Source of the DNA: a virus
IMG/VR virus record: IMGVR_UViG_3300017779_000074
Direction: 5' to 3' (one strand)
Length of the DNA: 31,921 bases
Every line of letters starts with the position of its first letter. Position 1 is the first letter of the stretch. The position numbers and the translations under genes were made by a program. Positions 1 to 31,921 of this stretch are shown piece after piece. The notes below the pieces were generated by a model. It had not been told where the DNA came from and made no database searches. It saw nothing but the letters and a program-made list of their open reading frames with translations.

Positions 1-123
1 ACCGTCCATAGCCATCTCTAGTTGTTTGCGTCTAAGCCCTTTAATGGCCTCAAAGCGACCTCTATCAATGGCAGCCTTGAAATCGGGGTTATTTCTATAC
101 CTATCCTCTATAACATCTTCGGA
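1..123. repeat. Window-terminal direct duplication, copy 1 (identical to 31799..31921)
   Basis: Compared base by base: 1..123 equals 31799..31921, so the unit length is 31798 bp. This fits a circularly closed or terminally redundant phage contig. Confidence 0.95.
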
Positions 124-234: not shown

Positions 235-322
235 CTCAATTATCCATTAAAAATTTATGTGGTGTATTATCGCTCCCCTTCCAGGATTGCCATTCGGTGC
301 ACCCCCCCCTCTATCGCTCTCA

Positions 323-506: not shown

Positions 507-532
507 AAAAAAAAGCCGTCAATTAAGACGGC
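507..532 (-). terminator. Intrinsic terminator ending the leftward early operon (bidirectional in form)
   Basis: Perfect stem GCCGTC (515..520) / GACGGC (527..532) with loop AATTAA. On the minus strand T8 (507..514) follows; on the plus strand a T-rich run CGTTTAGTGTTTTGTT follows. Confidence 0.75.
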
Positions 533-598
533 CGTTTAGTGTTTTGTTATATGTTTTTGTATATGGGTAAAGGTAGCAGACTCCAAAAGTGAGGGCAG

Positions 599-697
599 CT
601 AATCCCAAAAGCCGCGCCATTCGTTTTTAATTTGGTAAACAATAGCGGCAGATATATATAACGCGATGAACAGATAAAACAAGTTATTAGCTAACAT
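599..697 (-). CDS. Small single-pass membrane peptide (32 aa), not in the ORF track
   Basis: MLANNLFYLFIALYISAAIVYQIKNEWRGFWD. Its ATG (695..697) overlaps the stop of the upstream gene (AGATGTTAG), and it is the last ORF before the terminator. Confidence 0.35.
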   Translation of the reverse strand: MLANNLFYLFIALYISAAIVYQIKNEWRGFWD

Positions 698-918
698 CTC
701 TTAATACCTCGCGCATCTCTTAACAGTCTATACGATAGAACGACAGCCGTTTTGAAGTCACGCTTGGTTTCAAACATTCCCAAGTGTTGAGGTTTATTAT
801 CGACTGTGCGCGATAACACATAATAATGCTGTGACTGCGTGAAGCTGTAAACATCTGCGCCTACTTCACAGTTAAGTATCTGGACAGCTTTTTCACATTC
901 TTTAATTGTCACTCTCAT
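691..918 (-). CDS. Hypothetical early protein (75 aa)
   Basis: ORF-track frame 691..942. I prefer the internal ATG at 918 (MRVTIKECEK...) because AAGGTGAG lies just upstream. Confidence 0.65.
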   Translation of the reverse strand: MRVTIKECEKAVQILNCEVGADVYSFTQSQHYYVLSRTVDNKPQHLGMFETKRDFKTAVVLSYRLLRDARGIKRC

Positions 919-968
919 AATCTCACCTTTGTATTGTATCATTTAAGTTATTGATAAACATCTTACTT

Positions 969-1358
969 TTAAAAATTGCCAGCACCTAATAGTTGGTGCT
1001 TAATCATATTTAAGTCGATTTGGCGTATCACTTCGATATTGTCTCGGCAATCGTCTAACCACTTGCAATCGTGTAGTAGTTCTTCGCCTAGAATGTAGGC
1101 GACCATATTTGCTAGTGCTTCGGGGTTACTTATATCGCAGTGGCGCTCACCGAACATTTCATCTTCGTATTCTTGGACAAGTTTAATTGCTTGCCAAGTA
1201 TCAGCGCCTAGCCATTGCTCGGCCTTATAAGTGCCGATAATAAAATAGTCTTCGTTTAGCAAGTAATGGTGCAAATCGTTGCTGTCATTATCTAAACCGA
1301 TACCGCTATCTAATTGCTCGATAATGTATTCTTTAACGTCATTTTTTAATCTGTTCAT
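969..1358 (-). CDS. Hypothetical acidic early protein (129 aa)
   Basis: ORF-track frame 969..1403. ATG at 1358 (MNRLKNDVKEY...) is preceded by AAAAGGGG. No motif recognised. Confidence 0.7.
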   Translation of the reverse strand: MNRLKNDVKEYIIEQLDSGIGLDNDSNDLHHYLLNEDYFIIGTYKAEQWLGADTWQAIKLVQEYEDEMFGERHCDISNPEALANMVAYILGEELLHDCKWLDDCRDNIEVIRQIDLNMIKHQLLGAGNF

Positions 1359-1371
1359 TTTTAAACCCCTT

Positions 1372-1551
1372 TTATAAGTAAATAAAGATAAGCGGGGCGA
1401 CAAGCACTAAAACCGCGCCCGCAAAGCCCGCTAATACATCAGTAAAACTCAATTCGTCTATCATTTTTTCAGTATGGTTATACGTTGCGCAGCTTTTGCT
1501 TTTGCTCGCATCGTATTTATACGCGCCGTTTTTGAAATCGCTCGTTATCAT
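1372..1551 (-). CDS. Small protein with a C-terminal transmembrane segment (59 aa)
   Basis: MITSDFKNG...VLAGFAGAVLVLVAPLIFIYL. Its ATG at 1551 overlaps the upstream stop (TAATG). Confidence 0.6.
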   Translation of the reverse strand: MITSDFKNGAYKYDASKSKSCATYNHTEKMIDELSFTDVLAGFAGAVLVLVAPLIFIYL

Positions 1552-1760
1552 TAGAAGGCCTCGCATAAGTCTAAAAATCTTTGTTTAGTATCGGCTTTAT
1601 TCCCTTGGCTGTGAGCAACCCAAAGAGAGCGACCCTTAACACCAACAAAGCGCGACAATTGCGAGCCGCATAAAACCCATTGGCCGCGCTGTAATTTAAT
1701 TTGCCCGCTGATAACTGAATCGCCGTGCACCCATAAATCTATCGGTTTAATAAATTTCAT
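1551..1760 (-). CDS. Hypothetical early protein (69 aa)
   Basis: ATG at 1760 (MKFIKPIDLW...) is preceded by AAGGGGAG. The longer ORF-track start at 1811 lacks an RBS. Confidence 0.65.
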   Translation of the reverse strand: MKFIKPIDLWVHGDSVISGQIKLQRGQWVLCGSQLSRFVGVKGRSLWVAHSQGNKADTKQRFLDLCEAF

Positions 1761-1774
1761 TTTTTTAACTCCCC

Positions 1775-1963
1775 TTATATGACTGTATAAATGTGGTGAG
1801 CGCCTTCCCATATTTGGACGGTTTCGCCGTTAGCTTTAAAAGTTAAAACGCGCCCACCGTTATGCGATAAGATCACATTCTCATAACGGGTCTTAATCAT
1901 TCGCTCAACGTAAAGCCAGTTTCGGCCTTGGATTTTTGTGCTGATATAGTGCTGTATTTTCAT
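1775..1963 (-). CDS. Hypothetical first gene of the leftward early operon (62 aa)
   Basis: ATG at 1963 (MKIQHYIST...) is preceded by GTGGGAG and by a small GGGCGTAGCCC hairpin. Confidence 0.65.
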   Translation of the reverse strand: MKIQHYISTKIQGRNWLYVERMIKTRYENVILSHNGGRVLTFKANGETVQIWEGAHHIYTVI

Positions 1964-2164
1964 CTTATAAACTCCCACGGGCTACGCCCTAAATTGATTG
2001 AGTTTTAATAATAGTCTAATAATTTCAATTAATCACCCTTTTTTTTTAAATTATTCAGTGTTTATTAATTCCGCACGGCGCGACAATATGCCCACATTAA
2101 ACGGTATTTTTTCTTGTTTCATTTATACGCCTAATTTTTTTCGGCTTTTTTCTGGCTAAAAAAA

Positions 2165-2184
2165 TACTGTATATTTATCCAGTA
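2165..2184. promoter_or_regulatory. LexA (SOS) box 1
   Basis: TACTGTATATTTATCCAGTA, that is CTGT-N8-CCAG. One mismatch to the gammaproteobacterial CTGT-N8-ACAG core. Confidence 0.7.
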
Positions 2185-2202
2185 CTGTATAAATTCTCAG
2201 TA
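2183..2202. promoter_or_regulatory. LexA (SOS) box 2
   Basis: TACTGTATAAATTCTCAGTA, that is CTGT-N8-TCAG. One core mismatch. It shares its terminal TA with boxes 1 and 3. Confidence 0.65.
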
Positions 2203-2220
2203 CTGTACAGATATACAGTA
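2201..2220. promoter_or_regulatory. LexA (SOS) box 3 (perfect core)
   Basis: TACTGTACAGATATACAGTA, a perfect TACTGT-N8-ACAGTA palindrome. A TTGACC -35-like hexamer on the minus strand (2223..2228) is adjacent. Confidence 0.8.
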
Positions 2221-2253
2221 TGGGTCAAAAAATCCACACACCCCCCCAGCGGA

Positions 2254-2327
2254 TTCAAGAAAAAAGCTCCCAAAATTTCAAGAGAATACCTCCCAAAATT
2301 TCAATGAAAGACCTCCCAAAATTTCAG
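2254..2327 (-). repeat. Three tandem 23-bp direct repeats (iteron-like) plus a partial fourth
   Basis: The units are 2259..2281, 2282..2304 and 2305..2327. They share an identical 14-bp core, ctcccaaaatttca (minus strand TGAAATTTTGGGAG). Period is exactly 23 bp. Confidence 0.9.
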
Positions 2328-2330
2328 GCA

Positions 2331-2359
2331 GTGACAAAAATTTAGTTGGCAAAAATAAT
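2331..2359 (+). promoter_or_regulatory. Candidate rightward promoter (upstream of two)
   Basis: GTGACA (2331..2336), a 17-nt spacer, then AATAAT (2354..2359). Confidence 0.3.
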
Positions 2360-2364
2360 TATTT

Positions 2365-2383
2365 ATTGCAACTAACTTGCAAT
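2365..2383. promoter_or_regulatory. Operator-like perfect inverted repeat overlapping the -35 of the rightward promoter
   Basis: ATTGCAA-CTAAC-TTGCAAT, two 7-bp arms with a 5-bp spacer. The right arm contains the TTGCAA -35 hexamer. Confidence 0.45.
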
Positions 2384-2404
2384 TGCGCGTATAAACTATA
2401 TAAT
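2377..2404 (+). promoter_or_regulatory. Rightward early promoter
   Basis: TTGCAA (2377..2382), a 16-nt spacer, then a perfect TATAAT (2399..2404), 33 nt upstream of the first rightward ATG. Confidence 0.55.
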
Positions 2405-2436: not shown

Positions 2437-2682
2437 ATGAGAATTACTAATAAGCAAATATCAGCAAGAATAGAAAGAGAGTTTGGCATTCCACATATCA
2501 ATGTCTTTGTAGATTACGCGACAGGTCATAGCTTTTTTTACAGTGATGATGATGCAACTGCTGAGTGGTTAGGTCTTTGGGAAGAAACAACTACAGGTGC
2601 TTACAGATTAAACAGTTACACTCTTGATGAATGGCTACACGTTTTTAATGTTATGCGACCTAAAATAGTCAAAACTTTATAA
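2437..2682 (+). CDS. Hypothetical first rightward early protein (81 aa)
   Basis: ATG preceded by GCAGGGA. No motif recognised. Confidence 0.7.
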   Translation: MRITNKQISARIEREFGIPHINVFVDYATGHSFFYSDDDATAEWLGLWEETTTGAYRLNSYTLDEWLHVFNVMRPKIVKTL

Positions 2683-2688
2683 TACAAC

Positions 2689-2702
2689 GGGGCGCAAGCC
2701 CC
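2689..2702 (+). other. GC hairpin with a GCAA tetraloop between early genes
   Basis: GGGGC-GCAA-GCCCC. No U-tract follows, so it is more likely an RNA stability or processing element than a terminator. Confidence 0.3.
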
Positions 2703-2724
2703 ACAACCAAAAGAGGGTTAAAAA

Positions 2725-2952
2725 ATGTTCATAAAGGCAACTCAAAAAGATATGGCAAAGTATACTCTTAAAGAATTAATAGACTTCACTGAAAAAATGC
2801 AAGATAAAGCTGAAGCTCTCACGCCACGATTGCAGCGCACCACGGGAATGGACAAGTGGTATAGAAATTCCTTACCAGTTTTGTGCGGCGAGATACAAAA
2901 AAGGCAATTAACAGCTAAAGATAGAGGCGAAATATATCCCGTCTTTTCATAA
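2725..2952 (+). CDS. Hypothetical early protein (75 aa)
   Basis: ATG preceded by AGAGGG. Confidence 0.65.
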   Translation: MFIKATQKDMAKYTLKELIDFTEKMQDKAEALTPRLQRTTGMDKWYRNSLPVLCGEIQKRQLTAKDRGEIYPVFS

Positions 2953-2991
2953 TCAATTAATAGGGGCAAAAGCCTTAAAGGGTAAACAAAT

Positions 2992-3189
2992 ATGTATGCA
3001 ACAATAATTGACGAAGTTTCTTGTTACGGAGCTATAGATAGCGATTCAGTTATCGTTATGGCTTTTGATGATGAAAACTATGACGGTATTTCTGAGTCTA
3101 GCTTCAACACTTGGAGCGAAGCAGTCAAAGAGTGCTCTGATTACGCAAAATCAGTAGGAACAACATTAATTCAATTAGAGGCAGAATAA
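2992..3189 (+). CDS. Hypothetical acidic early protein (65 aa)
   Basis: ATG preceded by AAGGG. Acidic composition. Confidence 0.65.
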   Translation: MYATIIDEVSCYGAIDSDSVIVMAFDDENYDGISESSFNTWSEAVKECSDYAKSVGTTLIQLEAE

Positions 3190-3389
3190 TGCAATACACC
3201 ACAGCCAGCCAGTACGCTAAATTTCACGGTATGAAGTCATTGAAGGAAGTAGCCGATATGACTAATCAATCGTCTGAGACTCTAATTAATTGGTACAAAA
3301 AGAAGCGCGAATTGTTCGAGGTCGTTATAGTTGGCTGCGTAGTCACTAAACGAATGAATGAGATGGAGCAGGAAGTAGATGGCGATTAA
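3189..3389 (+). CDS. Hypothetical early protein, possible small HTH (66 aa)
   Basis: TAATG start/stop coupling. The LKEVADMTNQSSETLINWYKKK segment looks HTH-like, but the evidence is weak. Confidence 0.55.
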   Translation: MQYTTASQYAKFHGMKSLKEVADMTNQSSETLINWYKKKRELFEVVIVGCVVTKRMNEMEQEVDGD

Positions 3390-3810
3390 GAGAGATGCAG
3401 CAGATAATTGGTTTTCAAAATGTGTCCGTGAGCGCACTAATTACACCTGTGAAGTGTGTTATAAGCAATATGACCGCAGCTCGACTGGTCTGCATTGCTC
3501 TCATTACCACGGTAGGGCAAATAAATCCGTTAGATGGCACGGTGACAATGCCTTCGCCCACTGTTTCGGCTGTCACCAAAAAATGGGAGCAAATCCACAC
3601 GAATTCCAGCTCTGGACAGAGAATATATTAGGTTCTGGCAGGTATGACCTACTAACTGAACGCAAGAATGATACCAATATGGGCAAGCAGATGCACAAAG
3701 ATAATAAAGCGGGTCATATTGCGAAGCATTATAAAGAACAACACGCCATATTGTCAGAAAAAAGGGCAGATGGTGAAACTATGTACTTAGACTTTGAGGA
3801 TTACTTGTGA
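3379..3810 (+). CDS. ninG: NinG-like zinc-binding recombination/nuclease-family protein (143 aa)
   Basis: The pattern FSKCVRERTNYTCEVC...CSHYHGR...VRWHGDNAFAHCFGCHQ matches, from memory, the Cys/His layout of lambda NinG (FIRERD..C.SCG...AGHY..R...RF.ERN....C..CN). Confidence 0.55.
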   Translation: MAIKRDAADNWFSKCVRERTNYTCEVCYKQYDRSSTGLHCSHYHGRANKSVRWHGDNAFAHCFGCHQKMGANPHEFQLWTENILGSGRYDLLTERKNDTNMGKQMHKDNKAGHIAKHYKEQHAILSEKRADGETMYLDFEDYL

Positions 3811-3998
3811 GCGCAGTTAATAAGTTTAGAGAAAAGCAAAAAGAAAAAGGCAATGCCGAAGTGCGTGGTCTATATTGTAAAAAAGAATGTCACAAAGACA
3901 TCAAGTCACATATCAAACACATTTTAAGATTACACGATAAAGGGATAACCGATGAGCAAATCCGTAGTAGACTGGCTAGAATTGATCTGGAAAATTGA
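3807..3998 (+). CDS. Small basic protein, possible RHH-type regulator upstream of the initiator (63 aa)
   Basis: GTG start 6 nt after GAGGA. The N-terminus FREKQKEKGNAEVRG resembles small replication-regulator RHH proteins (memory only). Confidence 0.5.
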   Translation: MSAVNKFREKQKEKGNAEVRGLYCKKECHKDIKSHIKHILRLHDKGITDEQIRSRLARIDLEN

Positions 3999-4614
3999 TC
4001 TACCTAGCAACTCCAAGTATGTAGCAAGTTATCTTAGAACTTATATGAATATGAAGCGCGACCTTTGTTGGCCGTCAGTTGGTCGTATAAGCAAGGAAAC
4101 TGGGCTATCTGAGCAAACAGTAAGGGCGCATATTAAGAAGCTAGAGGCGGCTGGGTGGCTTACAGTTGATAGAAGTGAAGGCGGGCATAGTGGCACAACA
4201 AATCGCTATAAAGCGACCATACCTGATACCCCTGCAACCATTGCACCCCTGCAACCATTAGACCCCACCCCTGCAACAGTTGCACCCCTACCCCTGCAAC
4301 CATTAGAGGGGAATAAACAATACAATAAACAAGTGAATAAACAATTATTAAATAAAGAGATTCCTGATGAGTTAGCTGCGGCTGCAACAGCGTACTGGCT
4401 CAAGAAGGGCGCGAGCTTCGATATGGAAGAACAATGGCTGCTATTTACTTCTCATCATCAGGCTAAAAAGACTAATGTCCACAACTACGCAGCAGCGTGG
4501 CGAACGTGGTACGTCAATGCCGTTAGGTTTAACGCTAATCGACCTGAGAAAAAAGAAAAGATTTTCAATAGATTAACTGATGATTCGTGGGCAAATGGCT
4601 TTATTGATAAATAA
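3952..4614 (+). CDS. Replication initiator (lambda O-like layout) with a winged-helix N-terminal domain (220 aa)
   Basis: The N-terminal wHTH-like segment is CWPSVGRISKETGLSEQTVRAHIKKLEAAGWLTV. The gene contains four iterons followed by an AT-rich repeat block, as the lambda ori does within gene O. Confidence 0.6.
   Translation: MSKSVVDWLELIWKIDLPSNSKYVASYLRTYMNMKRDLCWPSVGRISKETGLSEQTVRAHIKKLEAAGWLTVDRSEGGHSGTTNRYKATIPDTPATIAPLQPLDPTPATVAPLPLQPLEGNKQYNKQVNKQLLNKEIPDELAAAATAYWLKKGASFDMEEQWLLFTSHHQAKKTNVHNYAAAWRTWYVNAVRFNANRPEKKEKIFNRLTDDSWANGFIDK
4229..4304 (+). repeat. Origin iterons inside the initiator gene
   Basis: CCCCTGCAACCATT at 4229..4242, 4246..4259 and 4291..4304, and CCCCTGCAACAGTT at 4268..4281. 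Together they encode the PATIAPLQPL repeat in the protein. Confidence 0.7.
4312..4344 (+). repeat. AT-rich 12-bp-period repeats next to the iterons (candidate DNA unwinding element)
   Basis: AATAAACAA at 4312..4320, 4324..4332 and 4336..4344. Confidence 0.5.
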
Positions 4615-4627
4615 TTTAAAATAAAGT

Positions 4628-4656
4628 TTGACAAATGCTAGATATGCGCGTAATCT
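4628..4656 (+). promoter_or_regulatory. Candidate internal promoter for the middle part of the rightward arm
   Basis: A perfect TTGACA (4628..4633), a 17-nt spacer, then TAATCT (4651..4656). The spacer contains GCGCGTA, as does the spacer of the promoter at 2377..2404. Confidence 0.5.
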
Positions 4657-4695
4657 TATAAACATCAAGTCATCAAATGCAAAGGGAGCATAAAA

Positions 4696-4968
4696 ATGAT
4701 AAACGATAATCCAGCACGAGTAGCATCTCCAGAGTCACCAGTTGAGCCAGACCTTAGAAAATTGAAGTACGATTTTTTACACAATTATCTAGATACTGAT
4801 AATACTGACTCTGCCTTTCACGAAGCCCTAGAAGATCGCATTTTTGAGAGCGGCTTAATCCACCACTGGCTGCGTAAGCTATACACTCATAAAGCTGACC
4901 AAGTGCAGCTAGATATGCAAGACCTTTTAACTGATTTTGTATCTGACTACATTGAGGCGAAGCTATGA
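4696..4968 (+). CDS. Hypothetical protein (90 aa)
   Basis: ATG preceded by AAGGGAG. Confidence 0.7.
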   Translation: MINDNPARVASPESPVEPDLRKLKYDFLHNYLDTDNTDSAFHEALEDRIFESGLIHHWLRKLYTHKADQVQLDMQDLLTDFVSDYIEAKL

Positions 4969-5198
4969 AAACTAAAGAATTGGAGGGTGCATTAGTTGAT
5001 GAGTCTATCGGTGACGCTCACTCACATAAAGAGTGGGAAGGCTGGCTAGAAGCAAACCTAATGTCGATGATGGCTGACTATGCTCGCGAAGCTGGTTATC
5101 CAACTGGTTATGAGTTCGGCAAGGCTATGGAAGCAATGGCGCTAGAGATTTGGCAGCTAATGAATGACAAGCAGCAAGACGAAGGAGTACCGTTCTAA
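4965..5198 (+). CDS. Hypothetical acidic protein (77 aa)
   Basis: ATGA start/stop overlap with the upstream gene. Confidence 0.65.
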   Translation: MKTKELEGALVDESIGDAHSHKEWEGWLEANLMSMMADYAREAGYPTGYEFGKAMEAMALEIWQLMNDKQQDEGVPF

Positions 5199-5329
5199 TG
5201 GCTATGTATACTTGTGATAACTGTAATGAGTTAAAAGACGATGACTGGTCGCCTTGCTCCGCAACTAAAACGATGGACTGGGTTTGCGAAGATTGCTTGC
5301 CAGAAGTTGAAGAAGAAGAAAATGGGTAG
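5198..5329 (+). CDS. Small Cys-rich zinc-ribbon-like protein (43 aa), not in the ORF track
   Basis: MAMYTCDNCNELKDDDWSPCSATKTMDWVCEDCLPEVEEEENG. It has CxxC ... CxxC pairs. TAATG couples it to the upstream gene, and its stop overlaps the next ATG (ATGGGTAG). Confidence 0.5.
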   Translation: MAMYTCDNCNELKDDDWSPCSATKTMDWVCEDCLPEVEEEENG

Positions 5330-5618
5330 GGAGAAAGAGTTTAGTCCTGTTGATTTTGAGCATCGCGGGACTGCTTACCAAAAGCATCACGATAGAATGG
5401 TAGGCGGCTCAAAAAGGTTTGTATCTGATACGCCTTGCCCTAAATGCGGGGAGTATCTGAGAAGGTGGCGCAAACAAAGAGAAGACCAAAAGACTTCATC
5501 TTGTGTTAGCTGCTCGCAGATAGCAAAGAATAAAACAGCCGATACGGTTAAATGCGATAAACGCAGAGCAATAGAAGAACACCAAAACAAAATGGGAGAT
5601 TACGATGACTATCTATAA
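5322..5618 (+). CDS. Zinc-ribbon protein (98 aa)
   Basis: ORF-track frame 5241..5618. I prefer the ATG at 5322 (MGREKEFSP...) because the longer start overlaps the better-supported 43-aa ORF. Cys pairs are CPKC and CVSC. Confidence 0.6.
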   Translation: MGREKEFSPVDFEHRGTAYQKHHDRMVGGSKRFVSDTPCPKCGEYLRRWRKQREDQKTSSCVSCSQIAKNKTADTVKCDKRRAIEEHQNKMGDYDDYL

Positions 5619-6207
5619 GAAAATAGCAACAGCACGAACTAAGCTACAATCTATGCCGCTAAAGAAATCAGGGCATAATAAGTTTGCAGGGTACAACTAC
5701 TTCGAGCTAGGTGACTTCTTGCCAGCTTGTAACGATATATTCGCAGAGCTAGGCTTATGCGATGTTATTAGCTTCGGCACTGAGTTAGCTACACTTACTG
5801 TATACGATACTGAGACTAGCGAGAGCGTAGTATTCAGCTCACCAATGGCATCAGCCAACTTAAAAGGCTGTCACGATATTCAAAATCTTGGCGCGAGCCA
5901 GACCTACCTACGCAGATACTTATGGCAAACCACTATGGGTATGGTTGAGCACGATGCGTTAGACGCTTCTAAGCCCGACCAGCCAAGCCGCGAGGAGATA
6001 TGCGCCAAAGCAGTAGAAGCTCATATTGATTCTCTACAGTACATTCGCAAAATGTTAAGTGACGCTACATCTGAAAATGTTGCACTGGCTAAAGAAGCGT
6101 TCGGTGAGATACCCGATACAGATCAGAGAGCTATGTGGGTTGCTCCAACTAAATGCTCTACTGCATTCCTAACAACTGAGGAGCGTAGACTGCTTAAAGG
6201 CGCGTGA
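5605..6207 (+). CDS. erf: ERF-family single-strand annealing recombinase (200 aa)
   Basis: KKSGHNKFAGYNYFELGDFLPACNDIFAELGL and GASQTYLRRYLWQTTMGM align by eye with P22 Erf (NQYNSFGKYKYRSCEDIL...GL and GATSSYARKYCLNGLFGI). RBS is GGGAG. Confidence 0.8.
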   Translation: MTIYKKIATARTKLQSMPLKKSGHNKFAGYNYFELGDFLPACNDIFAELGLCDVISFGTELATLTVYDTETSESVVFSSPMASANLKGCHDIQNLGASQTYLRRYLWQTTMGMVEHDALDASKPDQPSREEICAKAVEAHIDSLQYIRKMLSDATSENVALAKEAFGEIPDTDQRAMWVAPTKCSTAFLTTEERRLLKGA

Positions 6208-6428
6208 GAATATCTGACAGATTAAAGATGAGGATAGTTAAGATGCTGCACTTTACTCAGTTAAACTACTCTGAAATATCACGCTCGCTAGGTGTCCGTA
6301 GGGAAGTGGTTTATAAGATCGCTAAAGAAGTAAAAGACGATAAGCCGCTAACTGATGATGAGCTGGCTTGCACTAGCGTAACGCAGGGCTTTATGAATTA
6401 CTTAGCGAGGAATGACGATGGACGATGA
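6204..6428 (+). CDS. Small HTH DNA-binding protein (74 aa)
   Basis: GTG start overlapping the erf stop. The HTH-like segment is LNYSEISRSLGVRREVVYKIAKEV. Confidence 0.55.
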   Translation: MRISDRLKMRIVKMLHFTQLNYSEISRSLGVRREVVYKIAKEVKDDKPLTDDELACTSVTQGFMNYLARNDDGR

Positions 6429-6504
6429 GGAATGGTTAGAGATTATCGCAGCTTTAGTAATAATTGGTTTCGGGTTTATTTTTATAATACAAACTACACA
6501 TTAA
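6418..6504 (+). CDS. Small single-pass membrane peptide (28 aa), not in the ORF track
   Basis: MDDEEWLEIIAALVIIGFGFIFIIQTTH. Its ATG overlaps the end of the upstream gene. Confidence 0.4.
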   Translation: MDDEEWLEIIAALVIIGFGFIFIIQTTH

Positions 6505-6514
6505 GGAGAGAAAG

Positions 6515-6697
6515 ATGAAAGAAGAAAATTCAGTTTATATAGCGTTAGCACTTATGTTTGTTTCAGTAGGGGCTTGGTTCACACACATTATCCACTGTCT
6601 TATCCACGCTAAGTATTTGTTGTTGATTGCTGGCGCGTTTATGTTCCCTGTTGGGATTATCCACGGTGTAGGTATTTGGTTTGGGGTTAGCTGGTAA
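6515..6697 (+). CDS. Two-pass membrane protein (60 aa)
   Basis: Strong RBS AAGGAGAG. Two hydrophobic spans: VYIALALMFVSVGAWFTHII and LLLIAGAFMFPVGIIHGVGIWF. Confidence 0.7.
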   Translation: MKEENSVYIALALMFVSVGAWFTHIIHCLIHAKYLLLIAGAFMFPVGIIHGVGIWFGVSW

Positions 6698-6927
6698 TGC
6701 AAAAAGAGATGGTTTCTCTAATAGATCGCAGGTCAGTATTTGCCGATGGTAAAGAAATAGCAGAGGCTCTTATCGACCTGTACCATAACTCAGAGGAAGA
6801 AATTTCAACTTTTCATAGGTATCTTTTAGCAGAAGCGGCTATGCACATAAAAGGGCTGCAAGATGAGCACGAAAAATGCTTAGAGATATTTTCTAAATTA
6901 AATGGGGGGTATAGCGGTGGGTACTAA
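6697..6927 (+). CDS. Hypothetical protein (76 aa)
   Basis: TAATG coupling to the upstream gene. Confidence 0.65.
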   Translation: MQKEMVSLIDRRSVFADGKEIAEALIDLYHNSEEEISTFHRYLLAEAAMHIKGLQDEHEKCLEIFSKLNGGYSGGY

Positions 6928-7018
6928 AGGCATAGACCAAAGACCTTATGATCGAGATAAATTTAATAATAACTTTGATGCCATTTTTGGCAAAAAAGAA
7001 GAAAAAAAGAGGAGGTGA
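6917..7018 (+). CDS. Small basic peptide (33 aa), not in the ORF track
   Basis: GTG at 6917 lies 7 nt after GGGGGG. Sequence MGTKGIDQRPYDRDKFNNNFDAIFGKKEEKKRR. It fills the gap before the next gene. Confidence 0.35.
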   Translation: MGTKGIDQRPYDRDKFNNNFDAIFGKKEEKKRR

Positions 7019-7021
7019 AGG

Positions 7022-7225
7022 TTGAACGAAGAACATCTGGAGGAAGGCGATCTTATGATCGCGATAAAAAAGTCACCTGATAATGAGTCATTTTTTCTAC
7101 TCATATCGACCGACCAAACAACAAGTATTTTTGATGTCGGTGACAAAACTGATTTAAGGGCGCTCGGTGAGTTGTTCCTTGAAACAAGAAATTCAATTAT
7201 TGATCTAACAAGGGAGTTACATTAA
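7022..7225 (+). CDS. Hypothetical acidic protein (67 aa)
   Basis: TTG start 5 nt after GGAGGTGA. Confidence 0.6.
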   Translation: MNEEHLEEGDLMIAIKKSPDNESFFLLISTDQTTSIFDVGDKTDLRALGELFLETRNSIIDLTRELH

Positions 7226-7476
7226 TGAATAATCCAAGCCAGTACGACTTGATAAAAGACCACTTAGAATCAGGCAAGACTCTAACAAGATTAGAGGCTC
7301 TGAGCGATTTAGGTATTATGAATCCGACCGCACGAATATCAGAACTAAGGGCAGATGGAATCCCCGTAGAGACAAGAATGGTCGGTGTCTACAACAGATG
7401 GGACGCAAAGGTTAAGGTTGCTCAGTGGTTTATACCTGAGCAGGAAAGCCCTTTATTTAGACGTAATCGCAGCTAG
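7225..7476 (+). CDS. Winged-helix/HTH DNA-binding protein (83 aa)
   Basis: GKTLTRLEALSDLGIMNPTARISELRADGIPV resembles, from memory, the small phage HTH family with L..ARI.ELR..G. TAATG coupling. Confidence 0.55.
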   Translation: MNNPSQYDLIKDHLESGKTLTRLEALSDLGIMNPTARISELRADGIPVETRMVGVYNRWDAKVKVAQWFIPEQESPLFRRNRS

Positions 7477-7593
7477 GCAGCACTTCCTTGCGCTGCTGCT
7501 GGTCAGCGTTACCTAGCAACCAGCAAACTTTAAACTTAAAATCACTTTCAAATTTGAGAGTTATTTTCCACCTTGACTAAAGAGAGTATAACT

Positions 7594-7872
7594 ATGCAAT
7601 ACGATGACAATAACAAAGGCGCACTATGGCCAGCAAAAGACCGAGCTTCTGATAAACACCCACATTTCACTGGTAAAGCTATGGTGGGCGGGGTTGAGTA
7701 TTATGTTTCAGGTTGGAAGCGCGACCCTAACGGCAATCCAAAAGCGCCCTCGGTTAAGTTTAGCTTTAAGGCGGTAGATGAAGTGAAGGCGCAAACTATG
7801 CAGCAAGTGCCACAACAAACGCAGCCAGCTCAGGCAGCACCGATTGACTTTGATGATGATATTCCATTTTAG
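7594..7872 (+). CDS. Short ssDNA-binding-like protein carrying the bacterial SSB C-terminal tail (92 aa)
   Basis: ATG at 7594 lies 7 nt after AAAGAGAG; the ORF-track TTG at 7573 has no RBS. The C-terminus APIDFDDDIPF ends with the same 8 residues as E. coli SSB. A Gln/Pro-rich linker precedes it. Confidence 0.6.
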   Translation: MQYDDNNKGALWPAKDRASDKHPHFTGKAMVGGVEYYVSGWKRDPNGNPKAPSVKFSFKAVDEVKAQTMQQVPQQTQPAQAAPIDFDDDIPF

Positions 7873-7881
7873 GGATTAGTT

Positions 7882-8250
7882 ATGAAATATACAGCTCAGG
7901 CAACAACAGGTATTACAGGCGCACCCGCTGGAATGTATGGCGATTTGCGAGTGGACTCTTTGGGGACAGGCGATAAGTTTGACCCTTGGAAAATACAAAC
8001 CTCAATGTTTGGTGAAAAAATGAGGCTGTCTGAAGTCAGAGATAACATCAGAGATTTCCATAGGTTAAACGCCTATGGGACTCTTGTTATGTTTGCACTA
8101 AGGAATGGATTTACCGAAGACCAATTGTGCAGGGTTGCAGATAACAAAAAGAATATCTGTTATGACCTGTACTGCGGTGATGTCATTTTTAGAAAGTTGA
8201 ATGACCGCCACTATAAACGCAAAGCAAAGAAGGTGCGTAAAGGTGCGTGA
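7882..8250 (+). CDS. Hypothetical protein (122 aa)
   Basis: ATG preceded by AGGGA. Basic C-terminus. Confidence 0.7.
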   Translation: MKYTAQATTGITGAPAGMYGDLRVDSLGTGDKFDPWKIQTSMFGEKMRLSEVRDNIRDFHRLNAYGTLVMFALRNGFTEDQLCRVADNKKNICYDLYCGDVIFRKLNDRHYKRKAKKVRKGA

Positions 8251-8704
8251 ATTTATAATTAACCCAGCTAACCAAGATACTGTTGATGATTTTGTTAGCT
8301 ATTTAGATGAGACTCTGCAAGGTGGTGGCTTATTCAAAGTCACCATCAAGCAAGTTAAAGACAGGTCGCTGTCACAAAATGCTTTACTCCACATATGGTT
8401 TAGAGAGTACGCAGCAATGCGCCTTAATAAGCCCCTCAAGAAGATTACTCAAGACGATACCGATTCTATTAAGTTACTTGTCAAACAAGCCTGTTACGGT
8501 GATATGAAGTACGACTGGCTATGCCAGCGTGTGACTAATATAGATACTGGCGTCTCAGCTTTTGTTTTAAGGTCTACCAGTAGATATGACAAGGGCGAGA
8601 TGTTTATGTTTATGGAGTGGTTTCAAGCGTTCGCAGCACAAAAAGGTTTATTACTTGAATCAATGGGTGAATTCGGGAGATTAAAAGATGAAACCAACCA
8701 ATAG
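8201..8704 (+). CDS. ninB: NinB/Orf-family recombination mediator
   Basis: RSLSQNALLHIWF and STSRYDKGEMFMFMEWFQAFAAQKG align by eye with lambda Orf (RSLDQNRKLWA and STSRMRVGEFAELLELIQAFG). The true start may be the GTG at 8243, which overlaps the upstream stop. Confidence 0.75.
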   Translation: MTATINAKQRRCVKVREFIINPANQDTVDDFVSYLDETLQGGGLFKVTIKQVKDRSLSQNALLHIWFREYAAMRLNKPLKKITQDDTDSIKLLVKQACYGDMKYDWLCQRVTNIDTGVSAFVLRSTSRYDKGEMFMFMEWFQAFAAQKGLLLESMGEFGRLKDETNQ

Positions 8705-8867
8705 AGATAGATGTGAAAGTTATAAAGATATTTGCGAGGTCAGGTTCTTACTTTATATGGCGTACCAGTGCGATAGTGTGACAGAAAAGAAGAAGTTAAT
8801 TGATGACGCGATGATTAAGATTGACTCTTACATATGGGAAGATTTTGCGGAGTATCGTACTAAATGA
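8688..8867 (+). CDS. Hypothetical protein (59 aa), just below the ORF-track cutoff
   Basis: MKPTNRDRCESYKDICEVRFLLYMAYQCDSVTEKKKLIDDAMIKIDSYIWEDFAEYRTK. It is coupled at both ends by overlaps (ATGA with the next gene). Confidence 0.5.
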   Translation: MKPTNRDRCESYKDICEVRFLLYMAYQCDSVTEKKKLIDDAMIKIDSYIWEDFAEYRTK

Positions 8868-9292
8868 GATACGCCAGCCACTATAAAGACGACCCTAACG
8901 AAGATAGAATAATCGCTCACGCCTGTAGGGCTTGGAAGTGCCAAGCAAAGAAAATCCCGCCGCATTACGTTCTAGACTTCGCTATGTTGCGTAAAGGTCA
9001 GATAGTCGGCTTTGTTGAGGTTAAGAAGCGACACTTCCACTACGATAAATTCCCGACAACAATCATTCCATTCAATAAGATAATAAAGGCTAAAGATATG
9101 CTCAGGTTCGGCTATCCGTCATTCTTTATGGTTGAGTGGAACGATAGAATAGGCTGGGTGAGCTTAGACAGTAAGCCCGACAAGATAACCGTGGAAGGCC
9201 GTACAGATCGAGGCAGACCCGATGACATACAGCCTATGGCGCATTACAGTATAGACCAGTTTACTTTTCTGAACTGCCAGCCAACTGATTAG
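8864..9292 (+). CDS. PD-(D/E)XK-type nuclease (142 aa), possible junction resolvase
   Basis: LDF...GQIVGFVEVKKR gives a D ... E-x-K motif with typical spacing. It is the last gene of a nin-like recombination block. Confidence 0.5.
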   Translation: MRYASHYKDDPNEDRIIAHACRAWKCQAKKIPPHYVLDFAMLRKGQIVGFVEVKKRHFHYDKFPTTIIPFNKIIKAKDMLRFGYPSFFMVEWNDRIGWVSLDSKPDKITVEGRTDRGRPDDIQPMAHYSIDQFTFLNCQPTD

Positions 9293-31681: not shown

Positions 31682-31921
31682 TTATTCTGGAGCTACGATT
31701 TCGATATTTATGGGTTCAATACGCGATTGTTGGTCAATATCCATCTTATCGGTCTGACCTAATAGGTTTTTACCTAAGAATATCGCTAATTGAGTGTTAC
31801 CGTCCATAGCCATCTCTAGTTGTTTGCGTCTAAGCCCTTTAATGGCCTCAAAGCGACCTCTATCAATGGCAGCCTTGAAATCGGGGTTATTTCTATACCT
31901 ATCCTCTATAACATCTTCGGA
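31682..31921 (-). CDS. terS: Small terminase subunit, 3' part (continues from 1..234; 31799..31921 duplicates 1..123)
   Basis: The frame is continuous across the 31798/1 junction. Stop TAA at 31682..31684. Confidence 0.75.
   Translation of the reverse strand, partial: SEDVIEDRYRNNPDFKAAIDRGRFEAIKGLRRKQLEMAMDGNTQLAIFLGKNLLGQTDKMDIDQQSRIEPINIEIVAPE
31799..31921. repeat. Window-terminal direct duplication, copy 2
   Basis: Identical to 1..123. Confidence 0.95.

What the first reader, a model, noticed from the sequence alone, without database searches (positions are those of the whole stretch)
2165..2220. Three abutting LexA (SOS) boxes in the only divergent control region of a phage that encodes no repressor or integrase
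Seen in sequence: TACTGTATATTTATCCAGTA (2165..2184), TACTGTATAAATTCTCAGTA (2183..2202) and TACTGTACAGATATACAGTA (2201..2220) lie head to tail and share their terminal TA, so CTGT recurs every 18 bp. Box 3 is a perfect CTGT-N8-ACAG. Boxes 1 and 2 differ only at the first base of the ACAG arm. I found no other such site in the genome.

Established knowledge: this is the gammaproteobacterial LexA operator consensus (TACTGTATATATATACAGTA). Direct LexA control of phage switches is known for CTXphi, for the coliphage 186 tum gene and for Bacillus phage GIL01.

Inference: the array lies between the leftward operon (first ATG at 1963) and the rightward promoters (2331..2404), next to a minus-strand TTGACC hexamer (2223..2228). 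Host LexA probably gates early transcription. Because the closed genome shows no CI/Cro-like repressor, integrase, partition or telomere functions, LexA may be the main, borrowed repressor. That would allow an SOS-sensitive carrier or episomal state, or would tie lytic development to host DNA damage. A triple tandem operator is far more than a chance match.
Basis: partly seen in the sequence, partly recalled or inferred. Interest (0 to 1): 0.75.

Follow-up and report, generated by a model that had tools for sequence, protein, structure and literature searches.

The report
Triple LexA operator cassette in phage
Three near-perfect binding sites for the host DNA-damage repressor LexA sit head to tail in the control region of a small marine phage with no lysogeny genes. 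They look like an optional SOS-sensing add-on for one side operon, not the phage's master switch.

Summary
Three 20-bp LexA-type boxes lie at 2165-2184, 2183-2202 and 2201-2220, 18 bp apart. They score 25.5, 18.4 and 22.6 bits on an E. coli LexA matrix. The next best site in the genome scores 10.4 bits. Random genomes give 0.013 sites of that strength.

The genome is a closed 31.8-kb siphovirus-like phage. No integrase, partition gene or CI-type repressor was found.

The idea that LexA is the main, borrowed repressor is not supported:
- The array lies 110-160 bp from the strong rightward early promoters.
- The phage has its own operator-like palindrome, direct repeats and three small HTH proteins.
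- Close relatives with the same control region (L064, L072) carry unrelated DNA in place of the array.

The best reading is an SOS-gated auxiliary leftward promoter. TTGACC-15-TACAGT overlaps box 3 and would feed the mosaic early-left operon of small genes. Two other marine phage lineages place tandem LexA boxes upstream of operons that hold the same 129-aa gene.

Arrays of three to five LexA boxes, mostly 18 bp apart, recur in many uncultivated phage contigs and in Burkholderiales SOS promoters. I found no paper describing this. Which transcript is gated remains untested.

The parts
2165..2184 (.). LexA box 1, TACTGTATATTTATCCAGTA (CTGT-N8-CCAG)
   Evidence: 25.5 bits on the LexA matrix, heterology index 1.7. 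The sequence was read. Relatives L004 and L070 have C15 changed to G, a low-information position.
2183..2202 (.). LexA box 2, TACTGTATAAATTCTCAGTA (CTGT-N8-TCAG). It shares its terminal TA with boxes 1 and 3.
   Evidence: 18.4 bits. Identical in L004 and L070.
2201..2220 (.). LexA box 3, TACTGTACAGATATACAGTA (perfect CTGT-N8-ACAG)
   Evidence: 22.6 bits. L070 keeps a perfect core. L004 has ACAG changed to AGAG and drops to 14.6 bits on the uniform-background matrix, where the window's box 3 scores 23.9.
2202..2228 (-). Candidate SOS-gated leftward promoter, TTGACC (2228-2223), 15 bp, TACAGT (2207-2202). The predicted start is near 2195. Box 3 then covers about -25 to -6, box 2 about -7 to +13 and box 1 about +12 to +31.
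   Evidence: It is the best minus-strand sigma-70 score in 1950-2450 (10.2, roughly the top 0.1% genome-wide). It is weak evidence: the spacer is 15 bp, and the -10 is CACAGT in L004 and L070. It is present or absent together with the boxes.
2158..2164 (-). T7 run directly after the array on the minus strand (A7 on the plus strand)
   Evidence: Read. With the array it forms a hairpin (-23.9 kcal/mol, z -6.3) followed by U7 on the minus-strand RNA. T-runs also follow the LexA boxes in L091, L094 and L068.
2234..2252 (-). G-run (minus strand CCGCTGGGGGGGTGTGTGG) just upstream of TTGACC, part of the variable cassette
   Evidence: GGGGGGGTG occurs exactly twice in the genome, at 2239-2247 and 300-308. 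Both are on the minus strand upstream of leftward units. G-runs also flank the LexA boxes in L091, L094, L008 and L012.
2008..2036 (-). Proximal leftward promoter candidate, GTGATT-17-TATTAT, about 40 nt upstream of the ATG at 1963
   Evidence: Score 9.5. It is conserved in relatives with and without the array (alignments A1 and A3).
691..1963 (-). Early-left operon of five small genes: 62, 69, 59 (tail-anchored membrane), 129 (acidic, all-alpha, phrog_10208) and 75 aa. Its content is mosaic among relatives.
   Evidence: ORFs. PHROGs. Protein properties. L004 and L068 carry different cargo behind the same leader.
514..533 (-). Intrinsic terminator that ends the early-left operon, before the late (TerS) promoter region
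   Evidence: 7-bp stem with 5 GC pairs, followed by T8.
2254..2326 (+). Three 23-bp direct repeats with core CTCCCAAAATTTCA, probably sites for a phage regulator upstream of the rightward promoters
   Evidence: The core occurs exactly three times, against 0.28 expected. L004 has four copies. These are not the origin of replication.
2331..2404 (+). Rightward early promoters GTGACA-17-AATAAT (2331-2359) and TTGCAA-16-TATAAT (2377-2404), with a palindrome at 2339-2378
   Evidence: They are invariant in all relatives, including those without the array.
2437..9292 (+). Rightward early operon: NinG, O-like initiator with internal origin iterons, Erf, SSB, NinB, PDDEXK nuclease and three small HTH proteins

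Best explanation
The three boxes are genuine operators for the host LexA repressor. They form a very tight, SOS-released lock on an auxiliary leftward promoter. That promoter is TTGACC at 2228-2223 with a -10 inside box 3.

The promoter reads through a leader of about 230 nt into the early-left operon of small accessory genes (1963 down to 691). That operon also has its own LexA-independent proximal promoter.

Three LexA dimers would occupy the DNA from roughly -25 to +31 of this promoter and keep it silent. It would fire when LexA is cleaved. That happens if the host is already DNA-damaged, or if phage replication and recombination activate RecA.

The whole unit (G-run, TTGACC, three boxes, T-run) behaves as an optional regulatory cassette of about 95 bp. 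Some members of this phage group have it and others lack it. It modulates accessory-gene dosage according to host SOS state. It is not the master lysis/dormancy switch.

**Shown:** the sequence match to LexA sites, the positions, the presence or absence in relatives, and the recurrence of the design elsewhere.
**Inferred:** LexA binding, the promoter, the direction of control, and the physiological role.
For: 1. All three boxes score within the range of validated E. coli sites. Nothing else in the genome comes close.
2. The top minus-strand promoter candidate in the intergenic region overlaps box 3 and places boxes 2 and 1 over +1 to +31. Cellular promoters use a comparable geometry. In about 30 Burkholderiales genomes, two perfect boxes and a third, half-degenerate one, phased at 18 bp, start right after a -10 upstream of a small hydrophobic peptide gene. 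In one gammaproteobacterium they sit upstream of a dnaE2-like gene.
3. The TTGACC hexamer and the boxes are gained or lost together, while both flanks stay conserved (alignment A1; L070 and L072).
4. Orientation has independent support. Two other marine phage lineages carry a homologue of the 129-aa operon gene (L090-L092, L094). Both have tandem LexA boxes 370-600 bp upstream of, and co-oriented with, that small-gene operon. The order is the same: G-run, boxes, T-run.
5. In relative L068, a single 26.7-bit box sits inside the same operon, just before the homologue of its last gene.
6. Multiple SOS boxes are known to give very tight repression with no basal expression (PMC2994835).
7. The closest phage homologues of the capsid and replication proteins are mostly from Vibrio phages, and the relatives come from marine metagenomes. 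This fits a gammaproteobacterial host. Such hosts use the CTGT-N8-ACAG LexA motif (my own knowledge).
Against: - The candidate promoter is weak. Its spacer is 15 bp, and the -10 is CACAGT in the two other array-bearing relatives.
- Weaker candidates also exist on the plus strand, such as TTTTCT-16-TATATT at 2148-2175.
- The operon already has a proximal promoter 130-190 bp downstream of the array.
- Presence of the array does not correlate with any particular first gene on either side.
- Box 3 is degraded in L004.
- The host is unknown, and no binding or transcript data exist.
- The products of the operon have no recognisable function. No SOS-related logic can be read from them.
Confidence: 0.5

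Rival explanations
1. LexA is the phage's main, borrowed repressor. By binding the array it shuts early transcription, which allows an SOS-sensitive carrier or episomal state as in GIL01, or ties the whole lytic programme to DNA damage.
For: No integrase, CI-type repressor or partition genes were found. The array lies in the only divergent control region. The three sites are near consensus.
Against: - The strong, invariant rightward promoters at 2331-2404 lie 110-160 bp from the array and are not overlapped.
- The phage's own operator-like palindrome and repeats, plus three small HTH proteins, sit next to those promoters.
- Sibling phages L064 and L072 have the same switch region without the boxes.
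- No partition or other maintenance function is present.
- No copy of the array was found in 185,579 representative genomes.
Confidence: 0.06
2. The array gates a rightward transcript. Either a weak promoter with its -10 in box 1 (TATATT, 2170-2175) reads towards the repeats and the early operon, or LexA bound upstream modulates the rightward promoters indirectly.
For: Plus-strand candidates TTTTCT-16-TATATT and TTTTTC-17-TATATT score about 8. By my own reading of the L004 sequence, it has a better -35, TTGCTG, at 16 bp.
Against: The -35 in the window is very poor. The orientation evidence from L091, L094 and L068 points to the small-gene operon. A strong constitutive-looking promoter pair already serves the rightward operon.
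Confidence: 0.12
3. The array is mainly a LexA sink rather than a promoter operator. As the genome replicates, three high-affinity sites per copy titrate LexA. This derepresses host SOS genes, or the phage's own LexA-bound unit, in step with copy number. It would act as a replication-coupled timer or as a manipulation of the host.
For: The sites are stronger than most chromosomal ones, with heterology indices of 1.7-4.8. No convincing promoter overlaps them. Arrays of up to five boxes, more than repression seems to need, recur in other phage contigs.
Against: This is purely inferential. LexA is autoregulated, which buffers titration. Cellular genes also use triple arrays in ordinary promoter positions. 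The cassette is dispensable.
Confidence: 0.1
4. The palindromic array acts, alone or additionally, as an intrinsic terminator or insulator for minus-strand transcription entering from the right. It would protect the early-left unit from read-through.
For: The minus-strand RNA folds into a 22-bp hairpin (-23.9 kcal/mol, z -6.3) followed at once by U7. No terminator was detected where the late and early operons converge at 9261-9292. T-runs follow the boxes in three other loci.
Against: A hairpin does not require three separate consensus LexA boxes. Box 2 lies largely in the loop yet scores 18.4 bits. The stem is AU-rich. The substitutions in L004 and L070 are not compensatory on the minus strand (my own pairing of the sequences read). 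No minus-strand gene or good promoter lies upstream. A terminator-like site at 2704-2687 would act first.
Confidence: 0.06
5. The sites are not bound by host LexA. Either they are bound by a phage-encoded or other dimeric protein with similar specificity, or the host uses a different SOS motif and the repeats have another role.
For: The host is unknown. The phage encodes three uncharacterised small DNA-binding proteins.
Against: The match covers the whole 20-bp LexA consensus three times. The same motif precedes a dnaE2-like gene in a gammaproteobacterial genome and small SOS-type peptide genes in Burkholderiales genomes. The nearest homologues come from Vibrio phages.
Confidence: 0.06

Closest known systems
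Colicin operon operators (two overlapping SOS boxes), and the multi-box recN and lexA promoters of E. coli
   Same: Several LexA boxes are packed side by side at a promoter. This gives very tight repression with no basal expression and late or rare firing (PMC2994835). Simultaneous occupancy of tandem boxes has been reported (PMC13288465).
   Different: Here there are three boxes, each sharing its terminal TA, at an 18-bp centre spacing. From memory, colicins use about 15-16 bp and lexA uses 21 bp. The element is a phage and the controlled product is unknown. Promoter overlap is only predicted.
LexA-controlled switches of temperate elements: GIL01 (LexA plus gp7 at P1), CTXphi PrstA, coliphage 186 tum, and the N15, Gifsy and SPC32H antirepressors
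   Same: A mobile element uses host LexA to couple its own transcription to the SOS response (PMC4551915; PMC9437464).
   Different: Those elements are temperate, and LexA sits on the key lytic promoter or on an antirepressor gene. Here no maintenance or lysogeny genes were found. The array does not overlap the main early promoters. The downstream genes match no antirepressor family in PHROGs, Pfam or NCBIfam. Sibling phages lack the array.
Host transcription factors co-opted by virulent phages: Spo0A sites in phi29, and CtrA sites in alphaproteobacterial phages ('lytic deferment')
   Same: A phage without a classical lysogeny module carries binding sites for a host global regulator in its promoter regions. 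It thereby reads host physiological state (PMC9437464).
   Different: The regulator and the signal differ (LexA and DNA damage). Only one cluster of sites is present, on a side operon. No deferral of the whole cycle is evident.
Morons, which are self-contained accessory transcription units in phage genomes
   Same: A small module is present in some relatives and absent in others. It sits between conserved blocks and seems to carry its own promoter-like and terminator-like elements.
   Different: This cassette carries regulatory DNA only, with no gene of its own.

Membership tests
Gammaproteobacterial LexA (SOS) operator | A 20-bp site with a CTGT-N8-ACAG core and an AT-rich centre, scoring within the range of validated sites | tested here: met
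   25.5, 18.4 and 22.6 bits against a training range of 12.3-25.4. Heterology indices are 1.7, 4.8 and 4.1 (the matrix was built from sites recalled from memory).
Gammaproteobacterial LexA (SOS) operator | Occurrence beyond chance | tested here: met
   0.013 sites of this strength are expected per random genome, and three adjacent ones are observed. The next best site scores 10.4 bits.
Gammaproteobacterial LexA (SOS) operator | Position overlapping a promoter, so that binding represses it | tested here: inconclusive
   The best candidate, TTGACC-15-TACAGT, overlaps box 3 but has a 15-bp spacer and a weaker -10 in relatives. The main promoters are not overlapped.
Gammaproteobacterial LexA (SOS) operator | The host encodes a LexA that recognises this motif | tested here: inconclusive
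   The host is not identified. GC is about 41-42%. Relatives come from marine metagenomes. The nearest capsid and replication homologues are mostly from Vibrio phages.
Gammaproteobacterial LexA (SOS) operator | Physical binding by LexA and derepression on SOS induction | not testable with these tools
   This needs EMSA or footprinting, and reporter or RNA assays.
LexA-governed lysis/lysogeny switch (GIL01, CTXphi, 186 Tum, N15 AntC type) | The element is temperate, with integration, partition or other maintenance functions, or a resident repressor | tested here: not met
   No integrase, ParAB, protelomerase or S24-type repressor was found among the ORFs scanned. The 384-aa ORF is a phrog_704 exonuclease. 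No copy was found in the representative genomes.
LexA-governed lysis/lysogeny switch (GIL01, CTXphi, 186 Tum, N15 AntC type) | The LexA site lies on the key lytic promoter or on an antirepressor gene | tested here: not met
   The array is 110-160 bp from the early rightward promoters. The downstream small proteins match no antirepressor family.
LexA-governed lysis/lysogeny switch (GIL01, CTXphi, 186 Tum, N15 AntC type) | The sites are conserved across members of the phage group | tested here: not met
   Present in the window (L005 is identical), L004 and L070. Replaced in L064 and L072. Absent from that position in L068. L065 and L066 have a different region altogether.
Multi-operator SOS promoter (colicin / recN type) | Two or more adjacent high-affinity boxes that can be occupied together | tested here: met
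   Three boxes lie at an 18-bp phase. This is the preferred spacing in 37 of 64 neighbouring pairs in 26 other phage arrays. It also occurs in cellular promoters. Co-occupancy itself was not tested.
Multi-operator SOS promoter (colicin / recN type) | Control of a product that must stay tightly off, such as a toxic one | tested here: inconclusive
   The operon products have no known function. One is a small tail-anchored membrane protein. The 129-aa protein has no PDB fold match.
Rho-independent terminator | A stable hairpin followed immediately by a U-tract on the transcribed strand | tested here: met
   The minus-strand hairpin is -23.9 kcal/mol (z -6.3) and is followed by U7.
Rho-independent terminator | A transcription unit ends there, and pairing is maintained by compensatory change | tested here: not met
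   There is no minus-strand gene or good promoter upstream. The changes in L004 and L070 weaken minus-strand pairing (my own pairing of the sequences read).

The most novel reading that the evidence does not exclude
Arrays of three to five LexA operators, phased at 18 bp, may be a widespread and so far undescribed portable regulatory cassette of uncultivated phages that infect Beta- and Gammaproteobacteria, many of them perhaps virulent. Such phages would use host LexA to couple accessory or early operons to the host's SOS state. Alternatively they would use LexA titration to sense their own genome copy number, a replication-coupled timer built from a borrowed repressor. The strongly preferred 18-bp spacing would reflect cooperative, helically staggered packing of LexA dimers.
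Probability: 0.22. Interest if true: 0.7.

Novelty: new variant of a known kind. Interest (0 to 1): 0.5.

Why it matters
Use of host LexA by mobile elements is well known, but almost always as the induction trigger of temperate elements.

Here a phage with no recognisable lysogeny functions carries a triple, near-consensus operator as an optional cassette on a side operon. The same 18-bp-phased design recurs in many unrelated uncultivated phages and in cellular promoters of small, probably toxic, peptides.

If LexA binds, three things follow:
- Apparently virulent phages would read the host's DNA-damage state.
- The 18-bp packing would offer a natural test case for cooperative binding of LexA dimers.
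- The natural pairs of array-bearing and array-less sibling phages would give a clean system for measuring what SOS sensing contributes to phage fitness.

The finding does not, however, reveal a new kind of dormancy switch.

Tried and rejected
**Searches that found nothing**
- DNA similarity to isolated phages, in near and distant modes, gave no match. The phage is new. Its large terminase is only 47-50% identical to the best hits, a Caulobacter phage and E. coli, Salmonella and Pantoea phages.
- A Rfam scan of the whole window gave no RNA family. No tRNA was found.
- BLAST of the array against isolated phages gave only single or partial boxes, for example Vibrio phage Morian and Xanthomonas phage XbC2. 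No comparable triple array appeared.
- Four literature searches found no description of triple or 18-bp-phased LexA arrays in phages.

**Ideas tested and dropped**
- The conserved 200-nt leader (1964-2164, minus strand) as a structured RNA: z is +1.2 and there is no covariation. The small ORFs in it are broken by frameshifts in L004 (my own reading).
- The intergenic CTCCCAAAATTTCA repeats as the replication origin: rejected, because lambda-type iterons lie inside the O-like gene at 4219-4312.
- A link between array presence and a particular neighbouring gene: none was seen.

**Function of the operon and its neighbours**
- PHROGs, Pfam and NCBIfam gave nothing beyond two PHROG families of unknown function. 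The AlphaFold2 model of the 129-aa protein (pLDDT 76) has no PDB fold match.
- Genes that flank arrays in five other phage contigs are mostly small proteins without a useful annotation. Genes next to the first set of arrays gave only an endolysin, RusA and a small terminase.

**Attempts to find more relatives**
- Searching for more relatives through the adjacent 81-aa protein gave only three clusters. They lie in unrelated operon contexts.

Full report
**1.

The three 20-mers lie at 2165-2184, 2183-2202 and 2201-2220, head to tail, and each shares its terminal TA with its neighbour. CTGT recurs at 2167, 2185 and 2203.

The loose pattern CTGT-N8-ACAG with one mismatch is not rare: 17 hits against 11.8 expected. 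I therefore built a symmetrised weight matrix from 26 E. coli LexA sites recalled from memory. The boxes score 25.5, 18.4 and 22.6 bits, and the training sites span 12.3-25.4. The next best site anywhere in the genome scores 10.4 bits. Sites of at least 18.4 bits occur 0.013 times per random first-order Markov genome.

An identical copy occurs in an independent assembly (L005). This excludes an assembly artefact.

**2. What the genome is**

- The window ends share a 123-bp direct repeat, and the small-terminase ORF runs across the junction. It is therefore a circularly closed assembly of about 31.8 kb.
- GC content is about 41-42%.
- It has no DNA match among 50,697 isolated phage records. Its large terminase is 47-50% identical to the best hits, a Caulobacter phage and E. 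coli, Salmonella and Pantoea phages.
- The rightward operon (2437-9292) encodes NinG, a lambda-O-like initiator, Erf, SSB, NinB and a PDDEXK nuclease. Origin iterons lie inside the O-like gene.
- Everything else is on the minus strand: five small genes (1963 down to 691), a strong terminator (533-514), then small terminase, large terminase, portal, head, tail and lysis genes down to 9261.
- So 1963-2437 is the only divergent junction.
- PHROGs, Pfam and NCBIfam found no integrase, partition, telomere or S24-type repressor function. The scans covered all early ORFs and most late ones. The two largest tail ORFs and several small virion ORFs were not scanned. Three small HTH or winged-helix proteins are present in the early operon.
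- Capsid and replication homologues are mostly from Vibrio phages. Relatives come from Tara and other marine metagenomes. This points to a marine gammaproteobacterial host, which I did not identify.

**3. Where the array sits relative to promoters**

- The two strong rightward promoters (2331-2359 and 2377-2404) begin 110 bp and 156 bp beyond the array. Around them are a 40-bp palindrome (2339-2378) and three 23-bp direct repeats (2254-2326). LexA cannot occlude these promoters, and the phage clearly has regulatory sites of its own.
- On the minus strand, the best candidate in the whole intergenic region is TTGACC(2228-2223)-15-TACAGT(2207-2202). It would place box 3 over the spacer and the -10, and boxes 2 and 1 over +1 to +31. 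This is the classical geometry.
- That candidate is weak. The spacer is 15 bp, and the -10 is CACAGT in L004 and L070.
- A second leftward promoter, GTGATT-17-TATTAT (2036-2008), lies next to the operon and is conserved in all relatives.
- Plus-strand candidates that overlap box 1 exist but have very poor -35 elements.

**4. Relatives**

- The same control region, with the three boxes, occurs in L004 (a 32.2-kb contig) and in L070 (Tara). Their substitutions fall at low-information positions, except one that weakens box 3 in L004.
- L064 and L072 keep the leader, the direct repeats, the palindrome and the rightward promoters. They replace about 95 bp (boxes, TTGACC and the C-run) with unrelated AT-rich DNA of similar length. 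Only the first half-site remains.
- L068 keeps the rightward promoters but has a different left part, with no array at that position. It carries a single 26.7-bit box inside the left operon.
- L065 and L066 have a different control region altogether.
- The early-left operon is mosaic among these phages.
- The array is therefore an optional cassette, not a conserved core switch.

**5. Independent lineages and the wider pattern**

- The 129-aa acidic protein of the left operon has 649 homologues, almost all from marine metagenomes.
- Two other phage lineages carry a homologue (L090-L092 and L094). Both have tandem LexA boxes 370-600 bp upstream of, and co-oriented with, the small-gene operon that contains it. 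The order is again G-run, boxes, T-run.
- More distant homologues are the first early genes of marine T7-like podoviruses with 35% GC, and those have no LexA arrays.
- A pattern scan for two abutting boxes plus a third CTGT found 15 IMG/VR loci and 42 genome contigs.
- The genome hits are mostly Burkholderiales. There, two perfect boxes and a third, half-degenerate one follow a -10 directly, upstream of a 52-70-aa hydrophobic peptide gene. One gammaproteobacterial hit precedes a dnaE2-like gene. Five hits were coding tandem repeats.
It gave 26 distinct arrays of at least three boxes. Of 64 neighbouring pairs, 37 are spaced exactly 18 bp apart.
- Many of these arrays lie in divergent intergenic regions, between mostly small genes without a useful annotation.
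- The window's array is thus one instance of a recurrent design. I found no description of that design in the searchable literature.

**6. Mechanism**

The most likely reading (0.5) is that the boxes bind host LexA and lock an auxiliary leftward promoter. That promoter adds SOS-dependent transcription of the early-left accessory operon on top of its own proximal promoter.

Multiple boxes are known to give very tight, all-or-none control (PMC2994835). Release would come from prior host damage, or from RecA activation by phage replication and recombination intermediates. This last step is inference.

| Rival | Confidence |
|---|---|
| Rightward SOS promoter | 0.12 |
| LexA sink or copy-number timer | 0.10 |
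| Terminator or insulator role | 0.06 |
| Not LexA at all | 0.06 |

The terminator role rests on the array forming a -23.9 kcal/mol hairpin followed by U7 on the minus-strand RNA. The master-repressor model is disfavoured by promoter geometry, by the phage's own operators, by the dispensability of the array, and by the lack of any maintenance function or genomic copy.

**7. Comparison with known systems and novelty**

The array works like multi-box SOS promoters (colicins, recN, lexA). It belongs to the general theme of mobile elements that exploit LexA (PMC4551915; PMC9437464).

It fails the defining features of the LexA-governed lysogeny switches:
- the element shows no sign of being temperate;
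- the sites are not on the key lytic promoter or on an antirepressor gene;
- the sites are not conserved in the group.

The nearest conceptual parallel is the use of a host regulator by virulent phages (Spo0A in phi29, CtrA in alphaproteobacterial phages).

I rate it a new variant of a known kind, of moderate interest. The general 18-bp array design across phages is the part most worth following up.

Noticed in passing
window 1-123 and 31799-31921: The first and last 123 bases are identical (an assembly overlap), and the small-terminase ORF spans the junction. The window is therefore a circularly closed genome of about 31.8 kb.
   Followed up: yes
window 4219-4345: Four to five 22-23-bp iterons (ACCCCTGCAACCATTGCACCCCT) lie inside the lambda-O-like initiator gene. 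Two GAATAAACAAT repeats follow them. This is a lambda-type origin within the initiator gene.
   Followed up: partly
window 2254-2326 and 2339-2378: Three exact CTCCCAAAATTTCA cores at a 23-bp period (four in L004), and a 40-bp palindrome that overlaps the rightward promoters. They are probably sites for phage-encoded regulators. The binding protein is unknown.
   Followed up: partly
window 300-308 and 2239-2247 (minus strand): GGGGGGGTG occurs exactly twice. Both copies are on the minus strand, just upstream of promoter-like sites of the two leftward units (the small-terminase/late operon and the LexA cassette). Similar G-runs flank the LexA boxes in L091, L094, L008 and L012. Their meaning is unknown.
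   Followed up: partly
IMG/VR loci L006-L020 and L111-L214: Arrays of three to five LexA-like boxes recur in many unrelated viral contigs. Centre spacing is exactly 18 bp in 37 of 64 neighbouring pairs. Several arrays lie within 200 bp of contig ends or in divergent intergenic regions.
   Followed up: partly
L022-L062 (Burkholderiales genome contigs), e.g. L032 and L039: A conserved promoter carries two perfect LexA boxes and one degenerate one, phased at 18 bp. It lies upstream of a 52-70-aa hydrophobic peptide (...AFWGAMIPAFLWVGSAAGF) and is divergent from a 543-aa gene that looks to me like a thiamine-diphosphate enzyme (not family-scanned). It looks like an SOS-induced small membrane toxin.
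   Followed up: partly
window 972-1358 (minus strand): A 129-aa acidic (pI 4.4) all-alpha protein with 649 mostly marine homologues. In marine T7-like podoviruses that carry an integrase and an RNA polymerase it lies among the first early genes. The AlphaFold2 model (pLDDT 76) has no PDB fold match.
   Followed up: yes
L091 1162-2559 and L094 729-2642: These are very long (1.4-1.9 kb) non-coding divergent regions that hold the tandem LexA boxes. They also contain GC-rich stretches that may encode structured RNA, and repeated TGTCAATGTTTTGACA-type palindromes.
   Followed up: no
L068 1783-1802: A single near-consensus LexA box (26.7 bits) followed by T6. It lies between two genes of the early-left operon of a close relative, about 45 bp upstream of an extended -10 promoter for the homologue of the window's last left-operon gene.
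   Followed up: partly
L088 (Vibrio phage Morian) 88-177: LexA-like boxes (27.1 and 18.1 bits) are interleaved with TTATCCACA (DnaA-box-like) repeats within 200 bp of the genome end of a large lytic Vibrio phage. The record has no annotation there.
   Followed up: no
L065 / L066 upstream of the 81-aa gene homologue: An alternative control region carries two copies of GATGGGTACATTAT-N7-CTGTTACGC-N-TAATGTCAA, which look like operators for a different regulator.
   Followed up: no
window 9261-9292: The last early gene (plus strand) and the lysozyme gene (minus strand) converge and overlap by 32 nt. No intrinsic terminator was detected on either strand.
   Followed up: partly
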